A stretch of 64,000 nt of DNA. It comes from Enoplolaimus lenunculus (lineage: Eukaryota). The number at the start of each line of letters is the position of its first letter. The first letter of the stretch is position 1. The notes beneath the pieces were generated by a model. That model was not told the DNA's origin. It made no database searches and saw nothing but the letters and a program-made list of their open reading frames with translations. Below, piece by piece: positions 1 through 24,532 of this stretch. The translations under genes and the position numbers were made by a program. The stretch lies in assembly GCA_030248215.1 (NCBI GenBank), contig JASANG010002092.1:310001-374000 (forward strand). The letters run 5' to 3'.

Positions 1-227
1 AAGCACCAATTGTCAGGCACAGAACTATTTGGACTAAAATATGGAATTATTTTTTAGCTCTAAAACAATAGGTTAAAACTACAACTCTTGTGCGCACAAC
101 TTTTAAAAATAACCACTATCAACTTTCAGATGCAAAGCAATAGCTCGATCTGCTAACAAACCTCGTTCTATTTTAATTAAGCAATGTCCGCTCCGCAGCG
201 CTCAGGCGTAATTGCCTTACTTATAAA
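1..227 (+). repeat. 3' end of a dispersed repeat (Helitron/Helentron-like non-autonomous element), apparently inserted in the left arm of the piggyBac
   Basis: Near-identical to 3897-4123. Ends in the imperfect hairpin TAAGCAATGTCCGCTCCGCAGCGCTCAGGCGTAATTGCCTTA. The family assignment is inference. Confidence 0.75.
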
Positions 228-2863
228 TGTCCCTAGGACACGCGTTAAAAGAGCTACAGTAAACGAATAGCTAGTCATACTCTGTTGATTTATTGATATA
301 TACGTTTTTTAGACTGTTTATAGTATTATTAACAGCTTTACAGTGTTTTATTGATCATTGTTTTTGTTTGGCGTTCATTGCAAATACGTTATGGATAGCC
401 ATAAAAGGTAAGTAGAATGAATTGTATTGCTATTTACGTTGTATTTCTTAGCCAACGAAGATTTTATCACCATATTACCTTGTGATTATAGCAGTATATA
501 TAATACGAAAATCAGCTTCATGTCTCGATCTATACTTGTACAAGAGGTACTAGTAGTTGCTGTCTATTTTACTAGACCCTAGGAACAAGGGGTCTCAATT
601 TTTGCAAAAATCAGAAGTATCTGCTAGACAGTAAATAACGTTTGTGAGCAAACCGTTGTATAAATATAAATTCGTTTGAATCTTGTGCACTTCTAGGACA
701 GCTAAAGCTTAGGCCCATGCTTATGGTTAAGACTTTAGGCTAACGCTTCGTTTCATGTGTTTATTGTAATTTTGCTCCTCAGATATTCCGTGCAAGAAGT
801 CTTAGACATGGTTACTGCTGACGACGAAGATGTGGAAGCGATATACGTAGTGCCACCAAACCGTACATACGATACAGATGAAGATTCGGGCGATGAAGAC
901 GGCGGATTGCTTGACAACCTAAATGGGCGTCGGCTACAGGCGGAAGCTGAAGTCGTACTGCGATCTGGAACACGGTTGGGTGGAGAAACTGAAGATTCGA
1001 ATGGCGATAAATCTGAAGAAGAACACACATCAAACAAGGTGCCAGCGGCAAAAAAGAAAAAGGTCAGTAAATGGGCCGATGGTGACATTGATGAGATACA
1101 TTTTACTCCAGTCTCTGCGGATAAATCGTCGTATATAGGCAAATCGCCAACGGAACTTTTTGAATTGTTCTGGGACGATAGATTGTTTGAATATCTTAGC
1201 GAACAGTGCAGCAGTTACGCACGATACAAAAATTGTGCTGATCCAGAAATTACTGTGGAAGAGTTGAAGTGTTTTATGGCAATTTTGATTGTTAGTGGCT
1301 ACGCAAAACTGCCGGGCAAGCGATTTTTTTTGGGATAGTGGATCTGATATGAGAAATACGGCGGTTTATGAATCAATGAGGCGCAATCGCTTTGAACAAA
1401 TAATGTCGTTTCTTCATGTTGCTGATAACAATCAACCGTTAACCGGGGACAAATATTGGAAGTTGCGCCCCTTGATTGAAAATCTACAGGAAAAGTTTGC
1501 TCGAAATTTCTTGCCAAAGCTTCATATAGACCATGATGAAACTATGATAGAATATTTTGGCCGCCATGGCTGTAAACAATTTTTACGCGGTAAACCGATT
1601 AGATTCGGATATAAAGGGTGGTGCCTCAATACTCCAGATGGTTACCTTCTCGCGTTCGAATTCTACCAAGGAAAAACCTTCAAAAGAAACTCTGACTACG
1701 AAGCAAGGTTTGGAAAAGCGGGGGCGGCCATGATGCAACTAGTTGACAGTCTTCCCAATGAAATTCAAAATCTTCAGTTGTATTTCTACCACGACAACCT
1801 GTTTACAGGAATGAATCTTATTGAAGAATTGGGAAACAGAGGATATGGTTCAACCGGAACAATAAGAGACAACAGAATACCACGTGAAGTAGGCATACAG
1901 GATATGAGAACGGTCAAGAAGCAGGATCGCGGGTATTATGTCCAACGAAAATGCTGCGACGAAAGGGGAATAGTTATTGTGCGCTGGATGGACAATGCTG
2001 TTGTTACAGCTGCTTCAAACTGTCACAGCGTTGATCCTTGCACAAACGTGAGCAGGTGGTCGCAGAAGGAAAAACGCACTATTCAAATTCCGCGTCCTAA
2101 CTTGATCAGTTGCTATAACGCATATATGGGTGGGACAGATCGAATGGACCAGAATGTTTCGTTATATAGAATTGGAGTCCGAGGGAAAAAATGGTGGTGG
2201 CCATTGTTTACATGGCTAATTGACGTGTCTATTACAAATGCATGGTGCATATATCGAGAATGTGCCACCTCCAATATCGAAAGCGTGTTGCCGCAGCTGA
2301 ATTTTCGACGTCATATAGCCCAAGTGTATTTGGCAAGATATAGGACAGCGCCAAAAAGCGCAGGACGACCGGCTATTGCTCATTCAAGTACTTCGGATAC
2401 ACGGGTACATGACGATGTTCGTTTTGACAACACAGGGCACTATTTGATTTATACAGAAGGCAAAAAACAAAGACGTTGTGCGGGAAAAAACTGTACGACA
2501 AAGTGTATTACCCAATGCGATAAATGCCAGGTTGGCTTGTGTATTGGATGTAATAGAACGTATCATCAAAAAATTGAGATGAGGTGACTAATATGTAATA
2601 TAGTTGTTGTAATAATTTTGTATTTGAGTGCTCTTGGCTCCTGCATTTATCTTTTCATTGTTTTCATGTAAAAATTTTAATTTTGACAGTTTGAAGGTTG
2701 TGATATGTCCTAGTGTCCATTATAGTGGACAGCGCGTATTTGAGTAGCAAACCAATTATTTGTTAAGAACATTATACAGATATGTTTACCAAGTTATAAT
2801 TTTCGTAAAATGACTAGAATATATTGGATTTTTCGAAAAAATTAAAATTCAGGATAATATGGG
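228..2863 (+). mobile_element. piggyBac DNA transposon (left terminus not in window)
   Basis: Right end ...AGGATAATATGGG|TTAA (GGG 2861-2863, TTAA 2864-2867). Subterminal palindromes TGTCCCTAGGACA (228-240) and TGTCCATTATAGTGGACA (2714-2731). Contains a piggyBac transposase. Confidence 0.85.
391..2587 (+). CDS. piggyBac (PGBD-type) DDD transposase: exon 391-407, intron 408-782, exon 783-2587 with a +1 frameshift in the T8 run at 1324-1331
   Basis: Motifs IDHDETM, KPIRFGYK, YHDNLFT, GTIRDNR, YNAYMGGTDRMDQ, KKWWWPLF and a C-terminal Cys-rich domain (RRC..C...CDKC..LC..C...H). ATG GAT AGC CAT AAA AG|GTAAGT splices in frame to CTCCTCAG|ATATTCC, giving MDSHKRYSVQEV. ORFs 757-1338 and 1289-2587 join if one T is removed. 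Confidence 0.9.
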
Positions 2864-2994
2864 TTAATAGTGTCGCGTCAGATCTCTTCTGCGCACGTAT
2901 CTGCACGAGAAGCGTGCCGGGAGGTGAGGCAGGTGGCCGGGGCTCCCCACAATCGGAACCAGTTAGTCTGTCATAATTTAGATATTTAGACTAA
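2864..2994. repeat. partial unit of the 182-bp tandem repeat; target of both the piggyBac (TTAA) and the large TIR element (TAA)
   Basis: Near-identical to 21617-21748 (TTAATAGTGT...GGCTCCCCACAATCGGAACCAGTTAGTCTGTCATAATTTAGATATTTAGACTAA). Confidence 0.9.
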
Positions 2995-3639
2995 TGCATC
3001 ATCCAGGTAATAACGCGCACGCGATGTGAAAATTTGTCCGCTCAATATTCATAGGGTGCCAAAATTTTGAAGCTATATTGACGACTGAATAATATTTTTT
3101 GTCCCTATTTAGCTAGCATGACGAATTTTTATGATATTATTAAGAAGACTGCCAAAAATGGCAGACTGTTAAAATAGGGTTTTATTTTTTGATGTCCTTT
3201 TAAGAACCTAACAAATTTTTTCGTTTTAAAATTATTTTTCACATTTTCAGGTGGACCGAAATTATTTTACTGTAATTTTCAGCTCAAAAGTATCCACGCG
3301 GAGAACAGGTGAGTAAAAGATTTTTAGTTTATACTTTAAAGTATGTGTTTGGCAGAGCCGTATTTCTAAATGCAGAGCGAGTTCGACATTCTTGAGCACC
3401 CGATATGGGTTTTTAGCAAGGCGTTTGTCAAAAAGTAGATATTTACTTTGCTAGTGTACATTTGACGAGTAGCCGTTTAGAAAAGGGTAAATACGAAAGG
3501 TGTACGTTCAGCACCATGTGCTCGGGGCTGTTCTTAAGTAACCGACACACATCTGAGTTTCATACACTGTACCGTGCACATATACTGACAGCCAGAGCAC
3601 ACTAACCGGCACATTCTTGTCAGATAAGCCCCTATTCTC

Positions 3640-4123
3640 AAATGTGTGGCATGTCGGTTTTGTATTTCGGTTCTGTATTTCATCCGGTTGTGTGTTTCGG
3701 GTCTGTTCCTTTCTGTGTGATCCGGGTAGCTATCTATTGTATTCGTAACCGCGTCAACTGTATTTTGGGGTCTAACGGCTAATGGATCCGTACTTCAACT
3801 AAGATCGATCGCTCCGCAGGAAACGCACGGTTTTGGAAATTTTATATAAAAGTAAAATAGCAAATACGGAATGACAAATAAGACTATAAAATTTAAAGCA
3901 CCAATTGTCAGGCACAGAACTATTTGGACTAAAATATGGAATTATTTTTAGCTCTAAAACAATAGGTTAAAACTACAACTCTTGTGCGCACAACTTTTAA
4001 AAATAACCACTATCAACTTTCAGATGCAAAGCAATAGCTCGATCTGCTAATAAACCTCGTTCTATTTTAATTAAGCAATGTCCGCTCCGCAGCGCTCAGG
4101 CGTAATTGCCTTATACTTATAAA
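3640..4123 (+). repeat. second copy of the dispersed Helitron/Helentron-like repeat (left boundary approximate)
   Basis: 3897-4123 matches 1-227. Upstream TGT/CGG-rich microsatellite-like tract (3650-3725) and the same terminal hairpin. Confidence 0.65.
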
Positions 4124-4359
4124 GGTCCCAATTCCACCTAAGCCTATGACTGCTGCGTACAGCTTGCCGTAAAGAATTACCAACACGACTGCTCACACGA
4201 GCCAGTCGATTTCACTATTAATGCAATACTCACCAAATACCGGGGAAAACAATTGGCTCCAAAGGAGACACACGCAGGGGAAACTAAACTAACAGTCAAA
4301 ATTCCGGGAATAAGTCACACTTTGGATCACAACACATCTCCGCAAAATATATCCAAAAC

Positions 4360-4820
4360 TGTAGATAAAAACGCAACTGATAATTTCAACCAACTGAGGA
4401 ATTCTTAACTAAGAATTTTTTTTTGGTTATTTTTTAGTAAATTTAATATTAATTTTTGTAGAATTTTTTTAAGAATATTGTTTTAGAACTATTTTTACAC
4501 GCACGACGCCGATATAATCAAAAATACACAAAAATAACACAAAAAACAATAACTAAAAACACCCTAAAAACCACGTCTTAACCCTAGCTAGGTAATTGTT
4601 TTTAGGTTTTGAAAATAGATTTTTATATATTTTTAGTAAAATATCCGGCACGACTTAAGAGTCGCACTCGGATATTGGCCAGCGGGGTCACAGCTCAGAA
4701 ATAAGAAAAAGAGTGCTAAATAGGAGCCCAGGGCGCTCCAGAAAAAGGGAAAGCTGAGGGAGGGTGATTTAGAAAATTAAAAGTAAAAACCCAAAATTCA
4801 AAGGTGAGACACCACCTACA
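4360..4820 (-). mobile_element. LTR copy A (solo or 5' LTR) of the gypsy-like family; left boundary uncertain (4360, or as far as ~4126)
   Basis: 4662-4820 matches 5412-5570 with about 5 mismatches in 159 bp. Begins TGTAGGTGG on the minus strand at 4820 with no adjacent PPT. TGTAG at 4360 would complete a TGTAG...CTACA terminus. Confidence 0.6.
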
Positions 4821-5104: not shown

Positions 5105-5570
5105 TGTAAAAATAATTATAAAAAAAAAATTAAAACAAAAAATACATTATATCTTCCCTCCAAAATTTCAACAAAAAAAAATAAAAAAAAAAAAAAAAAA
5201 AAAATATATAAAAAACCAATAACAATCAAAAAAAAACAAAAACAACAAAAAAAAACAAAACAAAACAAAAAACAAAAACAAAAAAACACCCACCCCAAAC
5301 TATAACACACCACCCAAAAAAAAAAAAAAAAAATAAAAAAAAAAAAAAAAACCAAAACCACCCACCCAACACCCCACCCATAAAAAAAATTTATATATAA
5401 AAAAAAAAACATCGCACTCGGATATTGGCCAGCGGAGTCACAGCTCAGAAATAGGAAAAAGAGTGCTAAATAGGAGCCCAGGGCGCTCCAGAACAAGGAA
5501 AAGCTGAGGGAGGGTGATTTAGAAAATAAAAAGTAAAAACCCAAAATTCAAAGGTGAGACACCACCTACA
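5105..5570 (-). mobile_element. 3' LTR (copy B) of the gypsy-like retrotransposon; left part garbled
   Basis: Minus strand reads PPT GAAGGGGGAT (5571-5580) followed immediately by TGTAGGTGGTGTCTC. 5116-5410 is G-depleted A/C low-complexity sequence. Confidence 0.7.
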
Positions 5571-5943
5571 ATCCCCCTTCGACGCAAAACGCCGACCCCT
5601 GGCGTTTACCCACAAAAAATTGGACCAAAAATAATTTTACCCTACTGACCCCGCTTACATAAAAATTTAAAAAGAGGGGTTAAAAATAAGAAAAATATTT
5701 TAAATTTTGTTTGAAATATTTTTAAAATGCTTAAAAATAGAAACAAAAACATAAAAAATATAAAAACACAACAGTTATACGTAATATTTCACCATATATA
5801 TAAAATACACCGTATATTTAACAAGTATGGAATGACAAGTAATTTTTGGAAGGCAATTATTTGACAAGTAACTATGACCATTATAAAATAAATGGAATTA
5901 AAGTGACAATGTCACAACATATAATACATATTTATACATTTTT

Positions 5944-6195
5944 AAAACAGTTTTTTATAAAACAGTTTTTATACATACAGTTTATGCTATAAATCACAGT
6001 TCAAGACACATTATGCAAGTTTTTATAAAACAGTTTTTATACAGGTTATTTTATAAAACTCATTTCAAAACACAGTATTCAAGTTTTGTATAAAACAGTT
6101 TTATACAGGTTATGTTATAAAACTCAGTTCAATACATACTATGCAAGTTTTTACAAAACAGTTTTTATAACATACGAATTATTTTTATAAAACAC
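5944..6195. repeat. imperfect ~64-bp tandem repeat (about 3.5 units) in the retroelement 3' UTR
   Basis: Recurring AAAACAGTTTTTATACA...TATAAAACTCA...TATGCAAGTTTTT. Confidence 0.7.
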
Positions 6196-6272
6196 AATAA
6201 AAACATAATTATTGTCGCATCCGTGAAAAATAACTTCCGTCTTTGTGATTGTCTTTAACCTTTGTCCCGTCT

Positions 6273-9200
6273 TTAAAACTTGAATCGCCTTCTTTCTTGT
6301 GATCCTGACTGGTCCCAATTCTCCGGTGGTTGACTTTGAAACATCGGTCGCACGTTGATCGACATTAATGACGGCAATCGTGGCCTTTCTTGTCCTTGAC
6401 CCAACGAATCGACTCGCGGCGTACTTTGGTGACGACGCGGGCTTCTCCGTAATTGCGGTTCCACAGGCGTTTGTTGTTGTTGTTGTTGTTGTTCTACCTG
6501 CTCTTGTGAAAGCCGGCTTACCACCGGAATATAATTATGACTACATTCATCATATACAATCCTAGGTTCATCCTGGGACTGGCGAACCTCTTGGTCGCTT
6601 GTCCCTCTTTCCACAATTTCACCTTCACTTAATTCCTGCTGTTCCTGCGATTGGGCATAACCTTCGACTTCTATAGTCGTTGGTTGCTTTTGGCTAACAT
6701 GTGGTATATTCTGACTTTCGGGTTGGGCCGGGGGTGGGGGAGGAGGATTTACCTGCTGGATTGTCACAGCAGAGACATTTTGTCTCCCCTGTGACGGAAC
6801 TGCTACTACCTTTTGGCGGGAACGGTTGCGTTGTTCAATTATTTCCTGTTGCAATTCCAGGTCCGAAGCTTGTATTATTCTCCGAACTTCCGCAACAGAG
6901 TTAGTTACACGCCTCATTTCGGTTTCTAGAAAACTTTCCGCATGTGGGTTAATTTCCTTTAATTTTTCTTCAAAATTTAGGCTATGGGGTGGGCCCTCAA
7001 TTATAGCATCCTGGAACTCCATAGGCCATGGATGCTCTTCCATTAGGCATGCGGTACTTTTAGCCAACAATTCCTTGTTTTCATTTGGAATTTGAGCTAA
7101 TGTTAATTTTTCCAATTCCGGTTGTTCATTGTCCAATTCATTGAAGAGTCTTGCACGTTTCTGTTTGTCGTGCACTTCGTTAATGGCCTGAATATTTTTC
7201 CTATCGAATGCGTTCCTGATTTTCCAATAGTTACTGTTAGAGTACCCCGCACACTCAACTAATATGAGCATTGCTTGGGCTCTAACATCCCTACATTTTG
7301 AATACCTTTGTTGAACAACGTATTGCGATAAAGGAAGGAAATATTCGGGGGGCGCATTTATGTAGTATCGACGTCGCCAAGACATGCGTTCGATGCAATA
7401 TTTTCTTAATTCACATGCAAACCATCGCATCAGATCCTCGTATTCCCTCGTCGACATATTCGGTTTAATCTTTGTTACTGAAACTGCTAAACCATATTCT
7501 GCATAATTCAAATAATTTAACAAATCCTTAAATTCAGCCTTTACATGGAGTCTAAATCTCCATGCTTCTAAAAATGCCTCTTTCCATTTATCTGCTAATT
7601 TTCGAAGCCTAGTTGCAGACATCAATGTCTGTGGCATAGGAACAATATCGTTGATAGCAAAATAATAGATTTGTAATCTATATTCATAACCTATAGGCGG
7701 TTGTTGTACTAAGTCTGCTGGTTCCATTAGTAATATATTTGGATAAGTTAAATTTAAACTGGAAGAGGTGGCTTCACCTTCTGGTTCTTGCTCTTGTACT
7801 CCGACGGCTGCAGCCGCTGAAGTACCCGCTATAGGGGACATTGACCTAGGGAGTGGTTCATTCATACTTTCTAAACGTGCCTGTTTAACAATTACCATTG
7901 GCGTTCGAGCCCTTTTTTGTTTACTTGGACCTTTAGCCACGTCTTTGCCTTTATCTGTTATCACTTTTTCCACTATTACGTCTGATTGTTGTCCTGCTTG
8001 ATCGTCGGCGTCTTCGTCGATTATCAATTCACCCATACTGTCGGCACCTAAATCCTGCCTAGCAGGCTCCTGAAATTCTGTTTGTGTTTCCGATTCCAAG
8101 ATATTCGGAACAGGGCCTAATTTTCTTTCTAATTGCAAAATTCTCTTTTCCAATTTTCGTTTATCATCCAATAAATTTAGTAATTCTGTATGATCTCTAA
8201 CAGAATTTTGCATTGCCTTTGTTAAAACTTTTTCAGTACTTACCTTTTCCTGTTCTAATTTGCAGATTCGAACTTCCTGAATTGCAAATTTTTTAATATA
8301 TTCCTGCCTCAATTTTTCATCGTTTTCCTTCATCCAATCAGTATGTATGGAAGCTGCCTGAAGGGTGGACTTTGCTTGTTCAATAGTATCATCCACCATA
8401 CTGACATATTCCTGATAATAATGAAGCTTTAACATTGCTTCCTTTGCCTCTCGGTCCAAATTATTCCTTTGTAATATTACTCCATTCAAGCTTTTAATAG
8501 CCGCCTGAAGTACAATATACCGTTGTTCAATTTGGTAATATGGGAATCCAACTTCTGGGACAAATTTTTTCATAGCGGCTTGTACTTCCGCCATTGCCTT
8601 TAATTCCTTCTTTTGTATTTCCTCGATCCTATTTTTAATTAAATCCGTAATTGTTACAGATCCACCTGGGGGCGTTAGTTCACGGGTGGTATCGATTCCT
8701 GGAGGATATGGAATAAAACTCATCCACGTCGCTCCCTCTGGTACTGTAAATCTACTAGTTGTTTTGGGTCTATAGGAGACACCGGGCGATGGTTGTATAA
8801 CTGATAATTTTTCTTGCTCACCTAAAATAGATGTATTAAATTTCTTACTTATCTGTAATGTTTCATATTCCGAAGGTACCTGTTGGAAAACGTCCTGTTC
8901 AAGTTCCGTGATTGTTGTGTCCCCCAGTCTTGCACTGGAAGAAATTGTTTCCACAGGGCTTGGATATGAACTTACTCCTGAAACTGGTTCTGAAGTACGA
9001 CTTATTGTAGTCGGTTCTTCAGAAAATTTCTCAACTTCCATTGACTGGACAGCTAACCTATTTGCTAAATCGCTGTTAACATCCGTAATTGACGTTTCTT
9101 GAGGTGATTCCGTAGTGTCCATTTGTTGAAACAACGGAACTGTATCTTGCCTTGCAAGCCTTATCTGTTCCTCTGAAAGAGTTGGCGCTTTTGCCACCTC

Positions 9201-11135
9201 TTTAGGCACAGTTTCTTTTTGGGGTTGTTCTTTTGGGGGTAACGGGATTGCTGAAATTTCCTGAGGTTGAGGTGGTTTCATACCAACTACCTCTTCTAAT
9301 GTTTTTGGTCTATACGGTTTTGGTCCTTTTGGGGGTGGAGGTGGTGGCTCATCTGCCACTGCCTCCTGGGTTTCAATTCCACTCTGTCCTGGTCCTGATG
9401 GTTTAACAGTCATAAATTGACTAAACCATTCAGTTGCTATTCTATGTTCCTCCATAGCCTTTTTCCTTTCCTCTGTTTCCGGACCAAACATTTCGTCACT
9501 AATTTCACCTGTTATGGGTCTTTCCGGGTCGGCCCATTCCGGAAATCCTAATATGACTTCTTCGTCTTCGGAATCTAAAATACATTGTTTAACTTTACTT
9601 TTACCTTTTGATTTCTTTTTAGGTTTTTGGTCATCTTTTTGTTGCTTTTTGAAACCATCCCATCTGACGCATTGTCTTGCCCATTGTGGCCAATGATGCA
9701 CTGGGTCATTGATCACATCTCTTTCCCTAATTTCTTTGTCTCGTAATGCGTCTTCCCTTCGGATTCTTTCGATACTGGGCCATACCAATTCCATTCTCAT
9801 CTTGACTTCGGGTATTGTTGTATCAATTGGAATTGGATTTGTGTCCTGAAATAACTGAAAAATGGCCCTCCTACGAGGGACCTTTACCTTTTGACTTGCC
9901 TGAAATGAATATTCGATTGTGCACAAATTTGTTGCTTCCGTTATAGCATAGTTTTCCCAGGCAGCTTTTGTGTTTGCTCCTGGCATTATGTTAACTTTTA
10001 TGTCTCTATTGTGGACTTTTCCGAATACCTCAATTGCCTTAAAAAGTTGGAATGGGATATCCGATAAATTTCGTTTTGCAATCTTTTCAGGGTCTCGACA
10101 AATCATGGCTACAGCTACATCAGCTAGCATGACGTCTAAACTGGCATACCTAATAAACTCCATAAATCGTGTGTCATCCGTATCAACCGTCTGTGGACCT
10201 TTTGTCCATTGACGGAGATATCCCATCATGTATTCACCGTATGGAGTTTTTCCCTTATTGTATCTAAAATAAGCGGTTATGACATCTCCTAGTCCCGCTT
10301 GACCATATGCATGTTTATGGCAATTTTGTAGATCTAAAGTATTTGAATCGTAGGGAAATTTCTTATTTGGAGGTGCATTTTTCGAATCGCCATACAACAT
10401 TTCCCACATATTTCTATCATTATGCACGCTCCACCATAATTGTACAAAATTTTCATCGTGCAATAATTCGGATAGAGACTTAGGTATCTCTACTCCAAAA
10501 GCCTGAACATTAAAAATAAAAATTGCCCCTTCCGTTGTTCCTATTTGAAGTGTTCGCATTAAATTTTTACGAACTACCGTTGGTTTAGAACACCATTCCT
10601 CTAGGCAATATGTTTGATGGCCATCGGGGAGAAGTCTAGTATTGGAAGGGTGGGGATTTTCTTTGGGGTTTTCTTGGTGTTTTTCCAACATTTTCATATA
10701 AGTTTTATATTTTTGCCTTGAAAAATTTACTCCTTCAATGTCTAACGCTAAAATATTAGTCCTTGAAGCTCTTATTATTTCTACCGCCGCGTCTACCTGG
10801 TCTTCATCCGATAAAATTCCAACATACCGCGGTTTTCCCCATTCGCGCATCAACGTTTGTACTGGAACCCAGTATTCCAAGGAATGACATGGGTGGTTTG
10901 CATCATACATTGGGGATCCAACCGGCGGCTTTTCGAAAATCTCCGGCCATTGTACCTTTGAATTCGTTGCTGGCATTGTGTAATTAATCAATAACTGTCC
11001 ACCATACAGTATATCGTCAATATTTGAATTAAAACTTTTTGCAAATAACCAAACTACATGCACTAACACCAATATCAATACTATATAATATTTACTAAAT
11101 TCTTTTAAAGAATTTTTTACTTTTTTAATACTCAC
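6273..11135 (-). CDS. retroelement accessory ORF (1620 aa; first ATG at 10976 gives 1567 aa): N-terminal DEDDy 3'-5' exonuclease (RNase D/WRN/EXD/MUT-7-like), coiled coil, helical region and Q/P/E-rich disordered regions
   Basis: ExoI ILALDIEG, LQIGT, ExoII SVHND, LDLQ, GLGDV, ExoIII YASLDV (about 10110-10800). Single uninterrupted frame with no introns. Heptad-like stretch at about 8117-8640. Confidence 0.85.
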   Translation of the reverse strand: MSIKKVKNSLKEFSKYYIVLILVLVHVVWLFAKSFNSNIDDILYGGQLLINYTMPATNSKVQWPEIFEKPPVGSPMYDANHPCHSLEYWVPVQTLMREWGKPRYVGILSDEDQVDAAVEIIRASRTNILALDIEGVNFSRQKYKTYMKMLEKHQENPKENPHPSNTRLLPDGHQTYCLEEWCSKPTVVRKNLMRTLQIGTTEGAIFIFNVQAFGVEIPKSLSELLHDENFVQLWWSVHNDRNMWEMLYGDSKNAPPNKKFPYDSNTLDLQNCHKHAYGQAGLGDVITAYFRYNKGKTPYGEYMMGYLRQWTKGPQTVDTDDTRFMEFIRYASLDVMLADVAVAMICRDPEKIAKRNLSDIPFQLFKAIEVFGKVHNRDIKVNIMPGANTKAAWENYAITEATNLCTIEYSFQASQKVKVPRRRAIFQLFQDTNPIPIDTTIPEVKMRMELVWPSIERIRREDALRDKEIRERDVINDPVHHWPQWARQCVRWDGFKKQQKDDQKPKKKSKGKSKVKQCILDSEDEEVILGFPEWADPERPITGEISDEMFGPETEERKKAMEEHRIATEWFSQFMTVKPSGPGQSGIETQEAVADEPPPPPPKGPKPYRPKTLEEVVGMKPPQPQEISAIPLPPKEQPQKETVPKEVAKAPTLSEEQIRLARQDTVPLFQQMDTTESPQETSITDVNSDLANRLAVQSMEVEKFSEEPTTISRTSEPVSGVSSYPSPVETISSSARLGDTTITELEQDVFQQVPSEYETLQISKKFNTSILGEQEKLSVIQPSPGVSYRPKTTSRFTVPEGATWMSFIPYPPGIDTTRELTPPGGSVTITDLIKNRIEEIQKKELKAMAEVQAAMKKFVPEVGFPYYQIEQRYIVLQAAIKSLNGVILQRNNLDREAKEAMLKLHYYQEYVSMVDDTIEQAKSTLQAASIHTDWMKENDEKLRQEYIKKFAIQEVRICKLEQEKVSTEKVLTKAMQNSVRDHTELLNLLDDKRKLEKRILQLERKLGPVPNILESETQTEFQEPARQDLGADSMGELIIDEDADDQAGQQSDVIVEKVITDKGKDVAKGPSKQKRARTPMVIVKQARLESMNEPLPRSMSPIAGTSAAAAVGVQEQEPEGEATSSSLNLTYPNILLMEPADLVQQPPIGYEYRLQIYYFAINDIVPMPQTLMSATRLRKLADKWKEAFLEAWRFRLHVKAEFKDLLNYLNYAEYGLAVSVTKIKPNMSTREYEDLMRWFACELRKYCIERMSWRRRYYINAPPEYFLPLSQYVVQQRYSKCRDVRAQAMLILVECAGYSNSNYWKIRNAFDRKNIQAINEVHDKQKRARLFNELDNEQPELEKLTLAQIPNENKELLAKSTACLMEEHPWPMEFQDAIIEGPPHSLNFEEKLKEINPHAESFLETEMRRVTNSVAEVRRIIQASDLELQQEIIEQRNRSRQKVVAVPSQGRQNVSAVTIQQVNPPPPPPAQPESQNIPHVSQKQPTTIEVEGYAQSQEQQELSEGEIVERGTSDQEVRQSQDEPRIVYDECSHNYIPVVSRLSQEQVEQQQQQQQTPVEPQLRRSPRRHQSTPRVDSLGQGQERPRLPSLMSINVRPMFQSQPPENWDQSGSQERRRFKF

Positions 11136-11165
11136 ATCTATAACAATTACAAAGCCCGTATGTAG

Positions 11166-11785
11166 TCATAAGCTACCTTGGGCTTGTAAACACTGGGGAC
11201 AATACCATAAGGCTTGTGCTGGTTCGTCTATAAGACCAACACAGGTAAAATGAAACCATGATAGGCATAAGTCACATTGAATCCAATCTATGACCAAATC
11301 CGTTTGTAAATCAGTAGAATAGGAACCCTTGCAAATTTGACAATCCGCATCTTCCGATTCCTTATTTGAAATTCCGGCCCTTAATTTTGTTTCATATGCT
11401 AAATAATCTTCAATAGAGCCTCCAAAGTGTTTAACTAAAGCCTAGTTATACCAAGAGTCGGCTCGTGTTGCCGATCCTAGGTATTGTAATTTTAAATTAG
11501 GTCCGTCAACCCCTTTCCCCCGTAAATTTTCCAAATCGGGAAAAAAATTTTTAAAAAATTCCTCTTAGATTTTTTTTTTTCTTCCTCTCCAAACCCAAAA
11601 ACACCCCCGTAAAAATTCCCTTACTTTAGCCCTTTTATCATAATAGGACTTGTATTTGGTTTGGGAATGCAAAATTTGTTTTGCAGTATTTTCCCATGCC
11701 TGTGATAAATCTTGCAGCAGCCGAGCACTACAACCTGCCGGTTCTGTTGCCTTTAAGGTTGACATTAAACATCTACTGGTACCTA
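11166..11785 (-). pseudogene. C-terminal remnant of a gypsy-type integrase ending in a PHD finger
   Basis: Manual translation: VPVDV / ...QILHSQTKYKSYYDKRAKVREF... / VDGPNLKLQYLG...YN*ALVKHF...DADCQICKGSYSTDLQTDLVIDWIQCDLCLSWFHFTCVGLIDEPAQALWYCPQCLQAQGSL*. The C4HC3 PHD is at 11190-11342. In-frame TAG at 11442-11444. Garbled patch at 11520-11610. Confidence 0.8.
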
Positions 11786-11939
11786 CGCCTATTTTCGGGT
11801 AGCGAAAGAATTTTTGTTCTCGTCTAAATTAGTGTATGTATATTATATTTGCTTGTTATCGTCAGATTATTTGTTGTCGTCGCATACTTTAAATTCATTG
11901 TTTCATTCAAGTGGCTGATTTTCATATGGAGATGGAACT

Positions 11940-14190
11940 TTGAATAGTGGCTTTCCGCCGAACGTTAGGAAGTATTCAGCTGTTTTAGGTTGGCACGAAT
12001 TTCCTCCGTTTGAAATTCCTGATGCTCCATACACAGGACTGTCGCAGGGTGATAAGAGTAGTTCAACCGGCTATGCTCCGCAAGACCCATTACGGCAACA
12101 ACCTGTTCTTAAGTTGGCAACAGATAAGATTTGTTCAGTACCACTGGGTTCATCAATGCTGGGAACCGCGACGCAAACTACGAATTTAGCTGCTTGCGCA
12201 ACAATACGATATAACTCCAATTCGTGCACTGAAAAATTTGTTTCTGAGAAGTCTCAAGCTTTAAAAAATTGTAAAGTGTCTGTTGCGGCCGCAGGTATGT
12301 TTTAGAAAATCGTAATTCATTGCTATTTTCATACCGTCGATAGTAGCTGTTTAAAACGGTATACTTGTGAATTTTAGCATGGTATTAACCTTCATAATTT
12401 TTTATCAAATTTTGTATGTGTCATTTTGAATTGAAATTTAAAAACATGTGGCCATGGCTAACTGCACTAGCTGATTCTTGTCAATTGACTGACTTAAAGG
12501 TAATTGAGTATAAACAAGTGAACAGTGCCCAAACCACAATATTGCGCGTAACTGATGTATCATCTTTGTGCCACGTGATAATCTATGTGGTATTCGGTAA
12601 CAAAGCCGCTGCATTCCACCATCTCATCTACGGTAACTTCGTTCAGCTTTCAAAAAAACTTTTTCCATGCACTACCAAATATTCCAATTAAGAAGTAACA
12701 GAAAAACAAAAAATAATTCTATTTAGAACAAACCAAACAAAGAGAGAGTCAATCAATAGAAGATGGTAACTTGAATGAGACGAACGTAACTGGCGAATCT
12801 GTGTGTGTTGAAAATATCACAGAATCGAACTCAACTAGTGGTCAAAATGTGTTGTGCACATTAACAGAAATTGATGATGCAACACAGCCAACTCGAAATG
12901 TGGTTTCATCATATGGCGAGTCACAAACAGGTAACAAACTGGTATTGAGTGATAACACAACAAATACAACACACACTACATGTATATAGGATATTATACG
13001 TATATTTTACATGCATATATAAATATAACAATGTGTCTTGTTTCGTTTGCAGTATTGTTGCATTCAATTTGTGTATTGAGCCTGAAACAATAATACAATA
13101 AACCTTGTTAATAATATATTTTACAAATTTGTTCAATGTTAATATATACCAAGGAAGTCTTTATTGATATTGTTACCCGGAGAGACATAATTCAAGGCGT
13201 TTCAATCATGTTTCTTTGTATCTACTGCTTTAGGTACGGCGGAAACAAATAGTGAATTGGTTCAACGTAACAGGGAAGCACTTGCAAATCCTGATAACAC
13301 ACAGCTAGGTAAACCACTTTGTGTAATTGATAAATTATAATATATACCGAACGTAGCCTTTCGAAATCACAGCATGGTCGCTATTCTCATTCGGTGCACT
13401 AATGTCAATCCATGTGTTGTTCCAATTCTCGGAACTATGGGTATTTTAAAAGCCGTTGTAAAATTATTAAGCTATGTGTTTACTTCTATTATTTGCTAAT
13501 CTGATTTCAATAATCTGTTTGAAATGCTTTCGATAGCGCAAAGACGAAACTGTGCTATTTAATGCCCTATTTTTCTTCCTAAGTGAACAAGAGTTATATA
13601 TGTCACATTAACAAATTCATTAACTCGTTTTAGAGTTAGATGACTCGCTGGTTCTTCACATTTTGGATGTTGTTGATCCGAAAGTAAGTAACACCAGCCT
13701 TGTTCGTCCTTCTCGGGTTAAACAAATGCATCGTATTACCACAGATGAACTGGAAAAGATTTTTGACCAAGACTTGCCTTATCTAGAAATACGAGATGGC
13801 GGTCCTGGTTTAGGAGTTTTTGCGTTCAGAAGGTTTTTGCCTGGCGAAGCAGTTGCCGCATATGTCGGTGTCCGCATTTTACAAGTAGATGCGGAAGCAT
13901 TGGAAAACGAGCGTAACCAATCCCAAAACCCTAATGACTATTTGTTCTTTTTTACACACAACAGAGTCGCATATTGCGTTGATGCTCAGAACGCCACTAC
14001 GAGAGTTGGTCGATATATAAACCACTCCAAAAAGCATCGCAATTTGAAGCCGTTTGTTCATATGATAAGCAGTGGACCGCAAGTTTTTTTCAAAGCAAGA
14101 CACACTATAGAAATTGGTTATCAATTGTTTTATGACTATGATGATAGGCGTATGTTTGTTCGTAAAGCATTTCCATGGATAAATCGATGA
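11940..14190 (+). CDS. spliced SET-domain histone lysine methyltransferase, SETD8/PR-Set7/KMT5A-like; exons ~11940-12294, 12727-12930 (or -12981), 13234-13308, 13634-14190; 5' end unresolved
   Basis: Last exon: GLGVFA..F.PGE.V..YVG, YLFFF, YCVDA...RVGRYINHSK, LFYDYDDR...FPWI, collinear with the SETD8 SET and C-flank. All proposed introns are GT-AG and phase 1 and join in frame. Confidence 0.8.
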
Positions 14191-15963: not shown

Positions 15964-18900
15964 GTGCCATTGACGTATTATTGCAACGAATATTGCTCGT
16001 TTGGTAGACCAGTTCATATGGCAGCAATAAAGTTTGGGCTGCTTTTATTGCAAACGTCATGTTTGGACTTGAAAGAGGCTTTTCAATGCTGCAGCCAACA
16101 GCTTTTCCGGGTGAAACCAGCCACTGCGATGGCTATGAAGTATCCTACAGTGTTGGCCTACTGTCCTCTTAGAAAAAAACACTCGATTTTTCTAAAAATC
16201 GCTAAAACTTCTGCCGAGTTGTGTAGATTTCGCGATTTCACACAGCTAAGTGACATATTATTGCATGAACGGCAACAAAGAGATTGCGCTGACAGGGAAG
16301 TTTTACGAGAGTTATGTCCGCTATAAAATCTGTGCGATCGACCGCTACTAAAATACGCGATCATGCAATCGCAATCGCGTAGCTGTCGCGAAAACAATCA
16401 AATAGGTATATACAGAACTAAATCTATTACACTGAGCGTCCAAAGCAGGCTAGCGCATCTGGCAGAAGCTCAGAGCAAACTGGATCGTTTTGTGTTGCAA
16501 GAAATCAACGAAGACACAACGGGTACTGAGGCAATGGAATCAATTGACAGACAGTTGCACGATTTTTCTAGTCCTGAATCATTATTAGAGTTGTATTACT
16601 ATATGAAAAAGTGTGCTGAAATGTCTGCTTCCGTATTTGCTCGTTTAACCGGCACGGATAATGATGCAGAATTGTTCAAACTTTTGATTCATCAGTTGTT
16701 GTGCTTTGCTCGAAACAGAGGTCTTGAGGTTCCAGGTAGTTTCGCAAATTTAGCTGCTTCCCCAGGATGTCCGTTCGCTGATGAGGTGGATGAAGATATG
16801 TTAACGTTAAACGAACCTGTGGATCTGTTATTGGCAGCAGAGAATGAGCATACTTTAAGGGCTTTGGCCAAAAAATTGAAAAAAACAATTTGGTCTTATT
16901 ATCTCAGCAGAAAACGTCGTTTGCTAAAAGAGTTAAGAAATATAAAAGTAATAAGAGTAAATCGCGTGCCTGATGTCGTCAAACGTTTCCCTAACATAGG
17001 TCAAGAAATCGAAAACTTTGTAAGAGCAAACAATTGCGGGGCTGGGCCCTGGCGTCGAACGTCCGCTTTGACAGTCGGGATTGGTCGCGATGGGTTTTAC
17101 CCAGCAACAAAAAAAGTTACATGTTCTTCAACTCAACACAATTTAAACAAACTTGAAAACCCAATTAAACTCTCGAGAAGTTTAGTAAACAACTGCTGTG
17201 CATTAGCCAGGAAGCGAAACCGTCAATGCTCGGCTTGTTCGAAGAAACAGAGAAGTAGTTGTTTTTGCAAAGGACGTTACTCACTGGCTGATGTGATATG
17301 GCAACGAAGTCGCAAAGGCTTTAACTTAAAATTTTCGGCAGATGCATATTGGAGCAATAGTAACTATCGTAACAAAACTTATGTGGAAGCAGGCACCCCG
17401 AACACTCTGAGGATTGATAGTGACGACTTGTCGACCCTTCGCACAGATACTATTGCAACTCATGCTCAACATAGGTGTTTAATTATACGAGGTGAGCCCA
17501 TTGTTCGTTTAAGAACCGATTACAGATACCAAACTAAGACTTCTCTTCAGATTTCAACAATATACGTGCCACGGCGACCAGGAGTCACTCAGAGAACAGT
17601 AGCTGTTGTCAAGCGTAACATTGGTTTTCCTAAATCCGCAACACAACATTATGTCGATCGAGCACCAGTATTGGCCGAGTATAATAACATTAGAATTTGT
17701 TTACATAGGCGTGACGGTGCCAGTGATGAAGCACCGGATAAAAAGCAACCCCAATTCTGGGCTGCTTATGAACACTATCGTTTAAATCGCTGTCTTACTG
17801 TTGTTACTGTGAGATATCCAGGAGGCTCGTTTCTGAATGTAGTTGAGCGTGCAAACGGCGCGTTAGTGTTAGCTCATAGTAATCTACATCTGCCTTCAAC
17901 TCTGCATCATTCTCGTGTTGATACAAAATCAAGTGAGGGTACCAAAAAACTGAATGAAAACATGGATGAGTTACTTAATGTATACATCGATCACGTGAAG
18001 GGTGCTAGATTTATGGGTACGGAAATTGAATATGTTAAGGGCTGTAAGAACGCTCCCATTCCGGACGATGTTTTGAGGGCATTTATCTATGGACCGGATA
18101 CAAAAAGAAAAGCAATTAAACACGAATATCCAGAATGTTGGACAATCTTTAGTACTGTAGAGCAAATCAGGCGAGATCACGAAATGGTGGACAACAATAA
18201 ATACTTCTATGGTTTGAAAGCTTTGTGTGGAAATCCAAAATGCAAACACGCTATTTGTCAGAGATCCTGTTGGGACGTCGAGTTCAGAAACCAAATGTAA
18301 GCGATATTATTAAGTGTAGGGATAGCAAAGGGCTTCTGTTCAATTCATGATTTGCAGTACATTTTATATGTAGTTTACTTAAGTTAACTGTTTTGACATT
18401 GATTACAGGCTTTGTTGCAAATTTTTTCGTACAAATTTTGTTTCGAAACGCATATGCGCTGGAGATATTGTATCTTAATAACAAATGGCACACTACGATG
18501 AATAAATCGTAGGTATACGTTAACTATTCAACTTATGGTTATCTTTCTTGCCCATGTTGACAATACTTGCCTGCTAAGCTTAAGCTTTAAGCTAAGCCGA
18601 AGCCTCAACATATGCCTAAACAAAAAGCCTCAGCTTTTCAGTATCTAAGTTCTACAGTTCTCTTGTCTTCTTGTGAATCGTCTCCTATAATAAACACAGA
18701 CTAGTTTGTTGTTGATATGTCGGTAACTGAAATAGTTTCCATTTTCAGTAATTCTTTGAAATGGTTTCATGGTGGCCCAAGTATTTTTTTTGTTCCGTGG
18801 CCAGTGCCTCATCCCGATGCATGTCAGCAATGGGGACAGAGCGACTGCTCAACATGCAGTGGAGTATGCAGAGGTCATTATCTTGATGGTACGATTTGTA

Positions 18901-19420: not shown

Positions 19421-21563
19421 CTAATACTAGCGGCAACCATTAGTATTTCTGCATGCCATGGATTGTGTATTTAGAAAATAAAGGTTCGCGCTCTACATAG
19501 CTTAACAGTTCTTGCAAGTTATATAAATTTCAATTCCAAAGAATGCTACAGCTTGCAGTGCCACTGTCTTGATGTGTTATAATCTTGTATAGCCCAGCAA
19601 ACAATTCAATTTCTTAGATGTATCTTTTACAGTTTTGCAAATGTTTGTAGCGTGGGCCGGACATGTCTTATGGTGTAAGCAAAACAGACAAGGCTGTGGG
19701 TAAGCATAAATAAGTCAATCTTCAGCTTATGCCGCCTGTGTTTATTACTGCGCAAGCTTTTGATGTGTCAACTATTTCATTAATAAGAAGTTGCTATTTG
19801 AACTTCTATAAGCTTCGACAATCTTAGATAAGTAACTGACTGAGTAACAACGACCAACGTTAACTAAAGTTAGAGTTTACGTCCAAAATTTTAGGATGTA
19901 TGCCAGCTGAATCGGACTCGCAGGGTGATGCAGACTTAGTGTAAGTTTTGTAGTATTAAAAAGTGCGATATGCTTGTACGAGATATTTTAACAAGTGAAA
20001 TTGCAAAGGGTTAGATGATTTAACTGCAAATATCTCCGGATGGTCGCCGTAGGTTTATTACGCATATTTTGTTACGTCTGCTATGTATCTACCAAGACGC
20101 TCGGTTGTTGTTGTATCATACTAATTTTCATATACCGCCGGCAATCAAAAATGAAAATAACCTTTGTGTTTGCTATCTATAATTTAAGCTCTGTCTATAT
20201 CTGTTTTAGCTCAAGTGTATGTTCCGACGAATACTAAGCAGAAAAACTGTTATTTGTAATTGTTTTTGCTATGTGCATTGACATGTTTTACGTGTTTGCA
20301 TTTTGGCTTGAGTTAAGTCAGTTCGTGTCGGGTGAATAACCTAACACAAAACAGAAGGACTGTGTGCGTGTAGGTTTATTTCTTCTATAACAACTTTACT
20401 TTTGTAGATTGTCCACAGTTTCAAGCCTGTGATGTCGTAATTGTTGTATATGCATCTTGATGAGCTACGCTATCTATTGAGGAAGTAATATTTTTATGGG
20501 GTTTACACTGTACTGTAACATAATTTTAAGACGAATATGACGGTCGCGTGTGCAATAGATCGACCTTTTGTCTACGGGATTAAAACTTGTGTGGGATATA
20601 TTTCTCAAAAATGCTATTTACAGATGGTGTTTGCGCAAATAATACATAGGATATCAGTATTAACTTAGTAGGCTATGTAGCAACGTGTTGAGCGGTGTGT
20701 TAGAGTTAGCATAATCGCATAACAATGTATAGTATTCAACAATGTATTACTCATATATTTGTTTGTGTTTGGAATTAAACAATATTTTGTATGGTTTTGA
20801 GCGCCAATAATAGCAAAGAGTTTAAATTTTTGTCATGTTAGAAGTAAAGTTAAATGTTGGCTTCAATAACCTTGCGCAATGTATCTGTCAAAGGCGTAAC
20901 AATAGTATAAGCATAATCCTAAGCATCCTGTAAACTAAGCCTAGTCCAAAGCCTAAGCAAAGACAATAAGTCTGAAGCTTAAGCTTACCTTATTGCATTC
21001 ACGCGCAAAACGGTACGCCCTTCAAAGTACAATAGACCAGTACTGCAGTCCTGTAGAAAACGGTGCGCCCTTCATAGTACTATTGGCCATAATCGTGGTA
21101 AAATTTAACAAAAAAGTATTGCAGGGACCCGTCAATAAGCGCAACACAACCTAAAGTACTATTTTTAGAAGCATTTTACATAAACATACTTAAATTGCCA
21201 ATCTCCTCGGAAGCTAAAAAAGCAGTGCCATTTGCGAATTTTCTAAAACATGATAACGTTATTTCACTTCTGAACAAAATGTTTTACAGCTTCTTCTAAT
21301 ACGCTTAAGTAGATCTGGGAGATATGAATAGATAATTTTCAAATTTTTTATACTTCTGTGCACTGTTAAAATAAATTGCATACTCTTTTTGCTAACTCTA
21401 GTTTTTTATGCCCTTTTTGTCAACCCGATGATTTTTCGCAGCTTATTTTAATAGCTAGCTATATTTTGACACTATTAAAATAGTATGTTAAAAAATAGCT
21501 AGGCATTAAAAAGAGAAAAGACAAGTTTTTACATCGCGTGTGCATTATTACCTGGACGATGCA

Positions 21564-21793
21564 TAAAGATACAGAAATTACGTGTAGTTTCTCGCTCGCT
21601 TCGCTCGCTATCCTGCTTTAATAGTGTGGTGTCAGATCTCTTCTGCGCACGTATCTGCACCAGGAGCGTGCCGGGAGGTGAGGCAGGGGGCCGGGGCTCC
21701 CCACAATCGGAACCAGTTAGTCTGTCATAATTTAGATATTTAGACTAAAGATACAGAAATTACGTGTAGTTTCTCGCTCGCTTCGCTCGCTAT
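21564..21793. repeat. 182-bp tandem repeat (about 1.3 units here, continuing from 2864-2994)
   Basis: TAAAGATACAGAAATTACGTGTAGTTTCTCGCTCGCTTCGCTCGCTAT occurs at 21564 and 21746. Confidence 0.9.
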
Positions 21794-23615: not shown

Positions 23616-24532
23616 TCGTATTGTTGAATTATCGCAAAATTATCCCAGTGAAAAATTTGCATCGAATACGCACAGGTAATACTGAATTTATTACCATTGC
23701 AAGAAACTAAGCATATAAACAGTTTTGCTGTCGTATTGTTGAATTATCGCAAAATTAGCCCATTGAAAAATTTGCATCGATTACGCACAGGTAATACTGA
23801 ATTTATTACCATTGCAAGAAACTAAGCATATAAACAGTTTTGCTGTCGTATTGTTGAATTATCGCAAAATTAGCCCAGTGAAAAATTTGCATCGAATACG
23901 CACAGGTAATACTGAATTTATTACCATTGCAAGAAACTAAGCATATAAACAGTTTTGCTGTCGTATTGTTGAATTATCGCAAAATTAGCCCAGTGAAAAA
24001 TTTGCATCGAATACGCACAGGTAATACTGAATTTATTACCATTGCAAGAAACTAGGCATATAAACAGTTTTGCTGTCGTATTGTTGAATTATCGCAAAAT
24101 TAGCCCAGTGAAAAATTTGCATCGAATACGCACAGGTAATACTGAATTTATTACCATTGCAAGAAACTAAGCATGTAAACAGTTTTGCTGTCGTATTGTT
24201 GAATTATCGCAAAATTAGCCCAGTGAAAAATTTGCATCGAATACGCACAGGAATACTGAATTTATTACCATTGCAAGAAACTAAGCATATAAACAGTTTT
24301 GCTGTCGTATTGTTGAATTATCGCAAAATTAGCCCAGTGAAAAATTTGCATCGAATACGCACAGGAATACTGAATTTATTACCATTGCAAGAAACTAAGC
24401 ATATAAACAGTTTTGCTGTCGTATTGTTGAATTATCGCAAAATTAGCCCAGTGAAAAATTTGCATCGAATACGCACAGGAATACTGAATTTATTACCATT
24501 GCAAGAAACTAAGCATATAAACAGTTTTGCTG
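23616..24532. repeat. tandem satellite: 8 near-identical units (5 x 115 bp, then 3 x 114 bp)
   Basis: Unit starts (TCGTATTGTTG) at 23616, 23731, 23846, 23961, 24076, 24191, 24305 and 24419. Confidence 0.95.

What the first reader, a model, noticed from the sequence alone, without database searches (positions are those of the whole stretch)
6273..11135. Gypsy-like LTR element with a huge extra ORF containing an intact DEDDy 3'-5' exonuclease in the env position
Seen: between the integrase stop (11166) and the PPT/LTR (5580) lies one intronless 4.86-kb ORF. All DEDDy catalytic positions are present (DIE, HND, YASLD), followed by more than 1200 aa of coiled-coil, helical and disordered sequence ending in RRSPRR...RRRFKF. 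It has no fusogen-like Cys/TM architecture. Established: relatives of this nuclease fold (MUT-7/Nibbler, EXD1) act in small-RNA transposon silencing, and DEDDy accessory ORFs are known from some bdelloid rotifer retroelements. Inference: this could be a retrotransposon-encoded small-RNA trimming or counter-defence factor in a nematode-like host, with a large uncharacterised scaffold.
Basis: partly seen in the sequence, partly recalled or inferred. Interest (0 to 1): 0.85.

Follow-up and report, generated by a model that had tools for sequence, protein, structure and literature searches.

The report
Retrotransposon's giant exonuclease accessory protein
What is likely the broken end of a jumping gene in an animal genome carries, where a viral coat gene would sit, an intact 1,567-residue gene whose front part has the predicted shape and all the working residues of an RNA-trimming enzyme, so it may be a large, apparently undescribed tool that the element uses to handle RNA or blunt host silencing.

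Summary
The ORF is real: minus strand, first ATG 10976, stop 6273, 1,567 aa. Residues ~45-315 are a DEDDy 3'-5' exonuclease domain. D79, E81, D187, Y277 and D281 are invariant in three remote unnamed homologues. The template-free model matches WRN, Nibbler, EXD1 and RNase D (Z 13-14), and the only significant sequence-profile hit is Egalitarian (E 1.8e-5). Two homologues are also 1,700-1,840 aa, and a helical C-terminal domain of no known family is shared with at least one. The ORF lies between a PHD finger and a polypurine tract plus TG-starting repeat. The retrotransposon setting is likely but incomplete: no gag, RT or integrase core remains, and no homologue's neighbourhood could be seen. 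New here: one TGA-CTA and a stop-free 63-codon linker join the upstream frame to the ORF, hinting at readthrough, though the linker's codon use looks non-coding. DEDDy third ORFs are published for bdelloid rotifers, and this scan noted other exonuclease-bearing LTR elements in other genomes. Verdict: new variant of a known kind; activity and counter-silencing role untested.

The parts
6273..10976 (-). Large intact ORF, 1,567 aa from the first ATG (frame open from 11165)
10032..10844 (-). DEDDy 3'-5' exonuclease domain, aa ~45-315, with a ~55-residue insertion after motif I; D79 (nt 10742), E81, D187 (10418), Y277, D281 (10136)
   Evidence: invariant in 4 of 4 sequences
9642..10031 (-). Ordered-looking segment after the exonuclease, aa ~316-445; relation to the homologues' equivalent not shown
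   Evidence: aligned (P430, W439 invariant) but pairwise scores no better than shuffles
8112..8651 (-). Predicted coiled-coil region, aa ~776-955, between disordered stretches
   Evidence: crude heptad score and composition profile
7077..7679 (-). C-terminal ordered domain, aa ~1100-1300, probably helical, no known family
   Evidence: shared with P0004 (0 of 300 shuffles reach the score), not with P0001 directly (175 of 300); alignment A2; no PDB, Atlas or convincing Pfam match
10977..11165 (-). 189-nt AT-rich linker, stop-free only in the ORF's frame; three out-of-frame ATGs, two directly followed by a stop; splice-like sites near 11140-11130
11166..11168 (-). Single TGA between the PHD-bearing frame and the ORF, followed by CTA (type II readthrough context)
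   Evidence: motif class from passages of PMC3159437
11169..11441 (-). End of the upstream (pol-like) frame with a PHD finger
   Evidence: Pfam PF00628 E 4e-9
11442..11760 (-). Likely integrase C-terminal remnant, broken by stops at 11567-11565 and 11444-11442 in a homopolymer-rich stretch; unrelated plus-strand sequence lies beyond ~11770
   Evidence: read by eye against recalled gypsy motifs; no Pfam or PDB support; run density
5581..6272 (-). 3' untranslated region with a 64-bp tandem repeat (5952-6169); no poly(A) run, no AATAAA, no 9-mer shared with the linker
5572..5580 (-). Polypurine tract GAAGGGGGA
5412..5570 (-). Start of the likely 3' LTR (TGTAGG...), running into a low-complexity T-rich stretch
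4662..4820 (-). Second copy of the same 159 bp (97%), beginning at the same TG after unrelated sequence; a possible end CTACA lies near 4361, with no matching target duplication

Best explanation
This is likely the accessory third gene of a truncated gypsy-type LTR retrotransposon: it encodes a 1,567-residue protein whose N-terminal domain has the predicted DEDDy 3'-5' exonuclease fold with all five catalytic residues, and which likely trims RNA 3' ends for the element's benefit, most plausibly destroying host silencing small RNAs. Shown: the ORF, the motifs and their invariance in three remote relatives, the position between a PHD finger and a polypurine tract plus TG-starting repeat, and the lack of envelope features. 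Predicted: the fold, the coiled coil and the helical C-terminal domain. Inferred: that it belongs to the element (about 0.8), that it is catalytically active (about 0.7), that it is made from its own ATG at 10976 (about 0.45, against readthrough about 0.35 and the remainder for splicing or a decayed fusion), and that the disordered and coiled-coil body oligomerises the enzyme and places it in RNA granules where Argonaute-bound small RNAs or their precursors are trimmed away.
For: Five catalytic positions are among only 21 invariant columns in four sequences that share 19-23% identity, which points to long selection on the active site. The four-sequence profile hits Egalitarian at E 1.8e-5. The Atlas gives PF01612 at 0.92. 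All 41 Foldseek rows shown are DEDD-family exonucleases or complexes holding one, and VIA-align gives Z 13-14 to Pol I exo, WRN, Nibbler, EXD1 and RNase D. P0001 (1,836 aa) sits on a 6,712-bp contig, leaving little room for introns, and P0004 (1,696 aa) on a 14,505-bp contig. P0001 starts within about 15 residues of the ATG used here. No poly(A) or flanking repeat marks the ORF as a separate insertion. DEDDy third ORFs are published for bdelloid LTR elements (PMC5408684).
Against: No result here bears on the substrate. Egalitarian retains the same five residues without needing them. Gag, RT and the integrase core are absent, and the integrase tail has no database support. Seven locus scans confirmed no true relative in context (the one locus returned is trigger factor by my reading). 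The model is weak overall (mean pLDDT 40; 60-74 only in the core). The family has only four known members, and the window protein's C-terminal domain does not score against P0001 (175 of 300 shuffles). Rodriguez et al. note that a silencing-related role is speculative and that activity was never shown.
Confidence: 0.4

Rival explanations
1. The ORF is translated by readthrough of the single UGA-CUA as a long extension of Pol. The exonuclease would then enter the particle with reverse transcriptase and integrase and edit the element's own RNA or cDNA ends, possibly as a proofreader.
For: The ORF is in frame with the PHD-bearing frame behind one TGA followed by CTA. The 63-codon linker is stop-free in that frame only (10 and 6 stops in the other two); 23 of 20,000 dinucleotide shuffles are open. 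UGA-CUA is a described readthrough context, and SIRE1 is cited as separating pol and env by one in-frame stop (passage of PMC2194720). Pol I proofreading domains are among the top fold matches.
Against: The test was chosen after seeing the feature. The linker's codon score (-0.26) resembles the 3' UTR (-0.29 to -0.52), not the ORF (+0.10 to +0.57). No stable hairpin follows the stop (z 0.27, -0.39, -0.40). P0001 begins near the same ATG. The upstream frame has two other stops, so this one could be decay or a sequencing error. PMC2194720 found that a similar-looking junction in Tca2 works through an internal promoter, not readthrough.
Confidence: 0.2
2. The domain works like Egalitarian's: it binds a structured signal in the element's RNA without cutting it, and the coiled coil links that RNA to motors or germ granules so that the element reaches the germ line.
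For: Egalitarian is the only significant sequence-profile hit and the top Foldseek row. Egalitarian carries I-factor retrotransposon RNA to dynein and its catalytic residues are dispensable. An ETQT motif, recalled as dynein-light-chain-like, follows the coiled coil at aa 964.
Against: By VIA-align Egalitarian ranks 15th (Z 11.7), below WRN, Nibbler and EXD1. The exonuclease starts at about residue 45, leaving no room for Egalitarian's N-terminal domains. My estimate is that about 0.4 TQT motifs are expected by chance in a protein of this size, and P0001 has none.
Confidence: 0.2
3. The ORF is not part of the LTR element. It is an intronless host gene, a retrocopy, or cargo of another mobile element or virus that lies between LTR fragments in a cluster of nested insertions, or the arrangement is an assembly artefact.
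For: The neighbourhood is crowded with other elements (piggyBac-like transposase, SET-domain ORF). Two low-quality-looking stretches flank the ORF (5110-5410 and about 11450-11620). The ORF is intact while the upstream frame is broken. Atlas neighbours include giant-virus clusters. Reads could not be consulted.
Against: Same strand and same frame as the upstream remnant, 189 nt after its stop; followed by a tandem-repeat UTR and the window's only polypurine-tract-plus-TGT match, which coincides with the edge of the 159-bp repeat; no poly(A) or flanking duplication.
Confidence: 0.15
4. The ORF is an envelope or other membrane protein, gaining a membrane anchor from the hydrophobic stretch in the linker through splicing.
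For: The linker frame holds a 19-residue stretch of hydropathy 2.24 after basic residues, and an acceptor-like TTATAG lies just upstream.
Against: 1,894 of 20,000 random stop-free peptides of the linker's composition reach that hydropathy. The ORF itself has no membrane segment and few cysteines, and its N-terminal domain is a nuclease fold.
Confidence: 0.05

Closest known systems
DEDDy-exonuclease ORF3 of bdelloid rotifer Juno and Vesta LTR retrotransposons and Athena/Terminon elements (Rodriguez et al. 2017, PMC5408684; main text read, figures and supplement not seen)
   Same: Non-envelope ORF downstream of pol, DEDDy fold, catalytic residues intact, activity unproven.
   Different: The rotifer ORFs have a DEED variant and lack coiled-coil and membrane segments; this one keeps DEDD and adds about 1,250 residues with predicted coiled coil and a new C-terminal domain. 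A PHD finger precedes it. Shared ancestry with the rotifer ORFs was not tested.
Drosophila Egalitarian (PDB 9uju, 9rwb; passages of 10.1101/2025.08.03.668247 and PMC13186709)
   Same: Closest exonuclease domain by sequence profile (E 1.8e-5); intact DEDDy set inside a large, partly disordered protein.
   Different: A host gene with N-terminal LOTUS-like domains that bind BicD. Here the exonuclease is N-terminal, has a ~55-residue insertion, and nothing else matches.
MUT-7/Nibbler, EXD1, EXD2, WRN exonuclease, RNase D/Rrp6
   Same: Same fold, Z 12-14, effectively tied.
   Different: Only 10-19% identity in the structural alignments; no sequence-profile hit to any of them at E up to 10.
SIRE1 of soybean (pol and env-like ORF separated by one stop; seen only as a passage and a reference entry in PMC2194720)
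   Same: One in-frame stop between the pol-like frame and the 3' ORF.
   Different: A plant element with an envelope-like ORF; readthrough here is untested.
Burro giant gypsy-like elements of planarians (section 7 of PMC6431247)
   Same: Gypsy-like elements with kilobases of extra coiled-coil and regulatory coding sequence.
   Different: Burro's extras lie in a gag-pol polyprotein or upstream; that section names no exonuclease.

Membership tests
DnaQ-like DEDDy 3'-5' exonucleases | ExoI DxE, ExoII D, ExoIII YxxxD | tested here: met
   D79, E81, D187, Y277, D281 invariant in 4 of 4 sequences
DnaQ-like DEDDy 3'-5' exonucleases | DnaQ/RNase D fold | tested here: met
   Z 13.9 (rmsd 2.9, 159 aligned) to Pol I exo, Z 13.8 (rmsd 3.7, 193 aligned) to Nibbler; Foldseek E 1e-6; model mean pLDDT only 40
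DnaQ-like DEDDy 3'-5' exonucleases | Metal-dependent 3'-5' nuclease activity | not testable with these tools
   needs a bench assay
Ty3/gypsy LTR retrotransposon | gag and PR-RT-RH-IN in that order | tested here: inconclusive
   absent from the window; the remnant ends near 11770 and no genome is held
Ty3/gypsy LTR retrotransposon | Integrase C-terminal (GPY/F-type) module | tested here: inconclusive
   recognised by eye from recalled motifs; no Pfam or PDB match
Ty3/gypsy LTR retrotransposon | Polypurine tract abutting a TG-starting LTR | tested here: met
   5580-5572 then TGT; 1 match in the window, at the edge of a 159-bp repeat
Ty3/gypsy LTR retrotransposon | Two LTRs flanking the element, TG...CA ends, target-site duplication | tested here: inconclusive
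   no upstream LTR in the window; far end and duplication unresolved
Bdelloid DEDDy ORF3 (Juno/Vesta) | DEED variant of the motif | tested here: not met
   D-E-D-D here; DEED stated in PMC5408684
Bdelloid DEDDy ORF3 (Juno/Vesta) | No coiled-coil or membrane domain | tested here: not met
   heptad segments at aa 776-955 and 1345-1391 by a crude score; lack of them stated
Bdelloid DEDDy ORF3 (Juno/Vesta) | Clusters with rotifer ORF3 sequences in a tree; dUTPase in pol | not tested
   no rotifer sequence was retrieved; pol is missing
Egalitarian | Egl-type exonuclease homology domain | tested here: inconclusive
   best sequence-profile hit but tied with or below other subfamilies by fold; no tree
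Egalitarian | N-terminal LOTUS-like/BicD-binding domains before the exonuclease | tested here: not met
   exonuclease begins at about residue 45
Retroviral-type envelope (env) | Transmembrane anchor and cysteine-rich ectodomain | tested here: not met
   best hydropathy 1.55, 15 Cys in 1,567 aa
Type II stop-codon readthrough | UGA-CUA or UGA-CGG with an open downstream frame | tested here: met
   TGA CTA, 63 open codons, 23 of 20,000 shuffles
Type II stop-codon readthrough | 3' stem-loop and conservation across copies | tested here: inconclusive
   no unusual folding; no second copy available

The most novel reading that the evidence does not exclude
A lineage of animal gypsy-type retrotransposons encodes a 1,600-1,800-residue accessory protein, with an active DEDDy exonuclease and a new C-terminal domain, that is joined to Pol by programmed UGA-CUA readthrough. 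Reverse transcriptase, a PHD-tipped integrase and a 3'-5' exonuclease would then travel as one polyprotein: a retroelement with its own editing or anti-silencing nuclease.
Probability: 0.2. Interest if true: 0.85.

Novelty: new variant of a known kind. Interest (0 to 1): 0.55.

Why it matters
Whether LTR retrotransposons carry their own enzymes against host RNA silencing, or their own 3'-5' editing activity, is open: the rotifer cases were never assayed. This ORF supplies an intact candidate in another animal, a four-member family that pins down the catalytic residues, an unclassified C-terminal domain, and a simple recoding hypothesis. Each can be tested with a purified domain or a reporter. 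It also adds to unchecked notes from this scan that DEDD-type nucleases were captured several times by unrelated LTR elements.

Tried and rejected
No match from single-sequence searches: Pfam on the whole ORF and on the exonuclease part, PDB sequences (SMAD3 at E 0.4, rejected), word-based homologue searches at lengths 861-2743 and 187-595, and a profile search of 789-2250-residue proteins that returned only P0004, so no Pol fusion was seen; that is weak evidence. The ORF is not in the 15-billion collection by exact sequence. The single-sequence fold was unusable (pLDDT 35). P0003 was dropped from the 4 phmmer hits: a repeat protein matching short stretches without the motifs. Locus scans found no true relative in viral, metagenome or prokaryote contigs; L005 is a pattern-seeded chance match to what I read as trigger factor. 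The three viral contigs with an 18-base LTR match share nothing further with the element. The C-terminal domain matched nothing in PDB sequences, the Atlas or, convincingly, Pfam; it was not folded, so it cannot be called a new fold. The segment after the exonuclease did not beat shuffles in any of 4 pairings. The linker's hydrophobic stretch and folding are at chance level. In the window-wide control 2 of 321 overlapping AT-rich 189-nt stretches were stop-free; I did not check whether these are the linker itself. The E. coli RNase D region was fetched and not used. No complex was predicted. No reads, expression data or whole genome were available, so dN/dS and copy comparison were not done. 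Literature searches listed no paper on such a protein outside rotifers; the library lacks most subscription journals and Repbase, and no supplements were read.

Full report
Observation. The minus strand holds one open frame from 11165 to 6273, 1,630 codons stop to stop, by far the longest of the 10 frames of 150 aa or more in the window. The motifs DIEG, HND, YASLD and RRSPRR lie at residues 79, 185, 277 and 1510. From the ATG the best 19-residue hydropathy is 1.55 and there are 15 cysteines, so it is not envelope-like.

The exonuclease. Single-sequence searches saw nothing. An exhaustive phmmer search of 1.84 billion representatives with residues 1-340 gave 4 hits at E up to 0.001. I kept 3: P0001 (1,836 aa), P0002 (435 aa) and P0004 (1,696 aa), each an unnamed single-member cluster from ENA assemblies. 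P0003 is a repeat protein without the motifs and was dropped. The four-sequence alignment has 19-23% identity and 21 invariant columns, among them D79, E81, D187, Y277 and D281; H185 is S in the other three. Its profile finds Drosophila Egalitarian in the PDB at E 1.8e-5 and nothing else below 0.06. The Atlas places residues 20-340 with PF01612 clusters at 0.92, a score shuffled proteins reach 4 to 10 times in 100. A template-free model from these four sequences is weak overall (pLDDT 40) but 60-74 in the core. Foldseek returns Egalitarian, RNase D, WRN, Nibbler, Rrp6, EXD2 and EXD1, and VIA-align gives Z 13-14 to Pol I exonuclease, WRN, Nibbler, EXD1 and RNase D, with Egalitarian at 11.7. The DEDDy call is firm; the subfamily is not.

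The rest of the protein. After the exonuclease come long disordered stretches, heptad segments at about 776-955 and 1345-1391 by a crude score, and an ordered block at about 1100-1300. That block scores above all 300 shuffles against the C-terminus of P0004; P0001 against P0004 is matched by 4 of 300 shuffles; the window protein against P0001 is at chance (175 of 300). The three-way alignment has 21 invariant columns and no match in PDB sequences, the Atlas or, convincingly, Pfam. So size and layout look like family traits, on thin sampling. P0001's 5.5-kb coding length on a 6,712-bp contig leaves little room for introns.

The setting. Downstream are a 692-nt AT-rich region with a 64-bp tandem repeat, GAAGGGGGA at 5580-5572 and TGTAGG at 5570. 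This is the window's only match to a purine-tract-plus-TGT pattern, and it marks the exact edge of a 159-bp repeat whose second copy starts at 4820. The LTR's other end and a target duplication could not be fixed. Upstream, the same frame carries a PHD finger (E 4e-9) and, before it, a stretch I read as a gypsy integrase tail from recalled motifs. It has two in-frame stops in a homopolymer-rich patch and no database match. Beyond about 11770 lies unrelated plus-strand sequence leading to a SET-domain ORF. No RT, RNase H, integrase-core or gag motif was found. I scanned 84 of the 97 longer reading segments listed, plus 4 from further along the window, against Pfam, with no retroelement family; the 13 left out were low-complexity, tandem-repeat duplicates or already scanned. 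No poly(A) or flanking repeat suggests that the ORF arrived separately. No genome is held, no reads were seen, and seven locus scans gave no true relative. Membership of the element therefore rests on this one copy; I put it at about 0.8.

How it is expressed. The 189-nt linker has no stop in that frame but 10 and 6 in the others; 23 of 20,000 dinucleotide shuffles are open. UGA-CUA is the type II readthrough context (passages of PMC3159437), and SIRE1 is cited as a pol/env case (passages of PMC2194720). Against: the test is post hoc; the linker's codon score is like the 3' UTR's; there is no stable hairpin; P0001 starts near the same ATG; and Tca2 shows that such a junction can hide an internal promoter. 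Own start about 0.45, readthrough about 0.35, splicing or a decayed fusion the rest. These odds are my judgement.

Mechanism. Invariance of all five catalytic residues at about 20% identity favours an active enzyme. Several relatives of this fold act on small RNAs (MUT-7/Nibbler from my recall; mut-7 and EXD1 are named), so I commit to a 3' trimming nuclease, multimerised and positioned by its scaffold, that weakens small-RNA silencing (0.4 for the whole chain). Editing of the element's own nucleic acid as a Pol extension (0.2) and an Egalitarian-like RNA adaptor (0.2) are close rivals. Egalitarian keeps the same residues yet does not need them, and it transports I-factor RNA (passages). The host is an animal: talin and a mir-190-family hairpin are in the window. 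That it is a nematode is recall; if it is one outside clade V it would lack piRNAs (passages of PMC4323106).

Comparison and novelty. DEDDy third ORFs are published for bdelloid Juno and Vesta elements, with a DEED motif, no coiled coil and no demonstrated activity (PMC5408684, main text read; echoed in passages of PMC6431247 and PMC5718144). This ORF fails two of those features and is not filed in that family, though it probably works in a similar way. Six literature searches listed no report of such a protein elsewhere, within the library's limits. Unchecked notes from this scan describe Rrp6-like and DEDDh ORFs in LTR elements of other genomes, while sequence look-ups found no note on this family. 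The idea recurs; this family appears new. Verdict: new variant of a known kind, interest 0.55.

Noticed in passing
window 739-2587 (+): piggyBac-like transposase in two overlapping frames (Pfam DDE_Tnp_1_7, E 1e-8 and 6e-59); nearby sequence at 2864-3038 recurs, direct and inverted, at 21520-21793.
   Followed up: partly
window 11919-14190 (+): SET-domain ORF (E 3e-12) preceded by two open, exon-like segments that begin right at the break of the retroelement remnant; possibly cargo of another transposon.
   Followed up: partly
window 16327-18300 (+): 657-codon uninterrupted frame with no Pfam match and not in the protein collection by exact sequence.
   Followed up: partly
window 49582-49681 (-): mir-190-family hairpin (Rfam E 2e-7) between exons of a talin gene.
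   Followed up: partly
window 28080-29649 (-): Homeobox split over two exons, with further likely exons at 35220-35978 and 37053-37283.
   Followed up: no
window 5110-5410 and about 11450-11620: Homopolymer-rich stretches that look like poor-quality sequence or heavy decay; the first lies between the two 159-bp LTR copies.
   Followed up: partly
window 11137, 11059, 11005 (-): Three out-of-frame ATGs in the linker; two are followed at once by a stop codon. They could damp or steer initiation at 10976.
   Followed up: no
window 1-233 and 3896-4129: 98%-identical direct repeat flanking the piggyBac-like region.
   Followed up: no
window 42787-43113 (-): Short frame that by recall resembles a Penelope-like retroelement fragment; no Pfam match.
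   Followed up: no
window 23616-24532 and 28290-28537: Young tandem arrays: 115 bp x 8 (98%) and 25 bp x 10.
   Followed up: no
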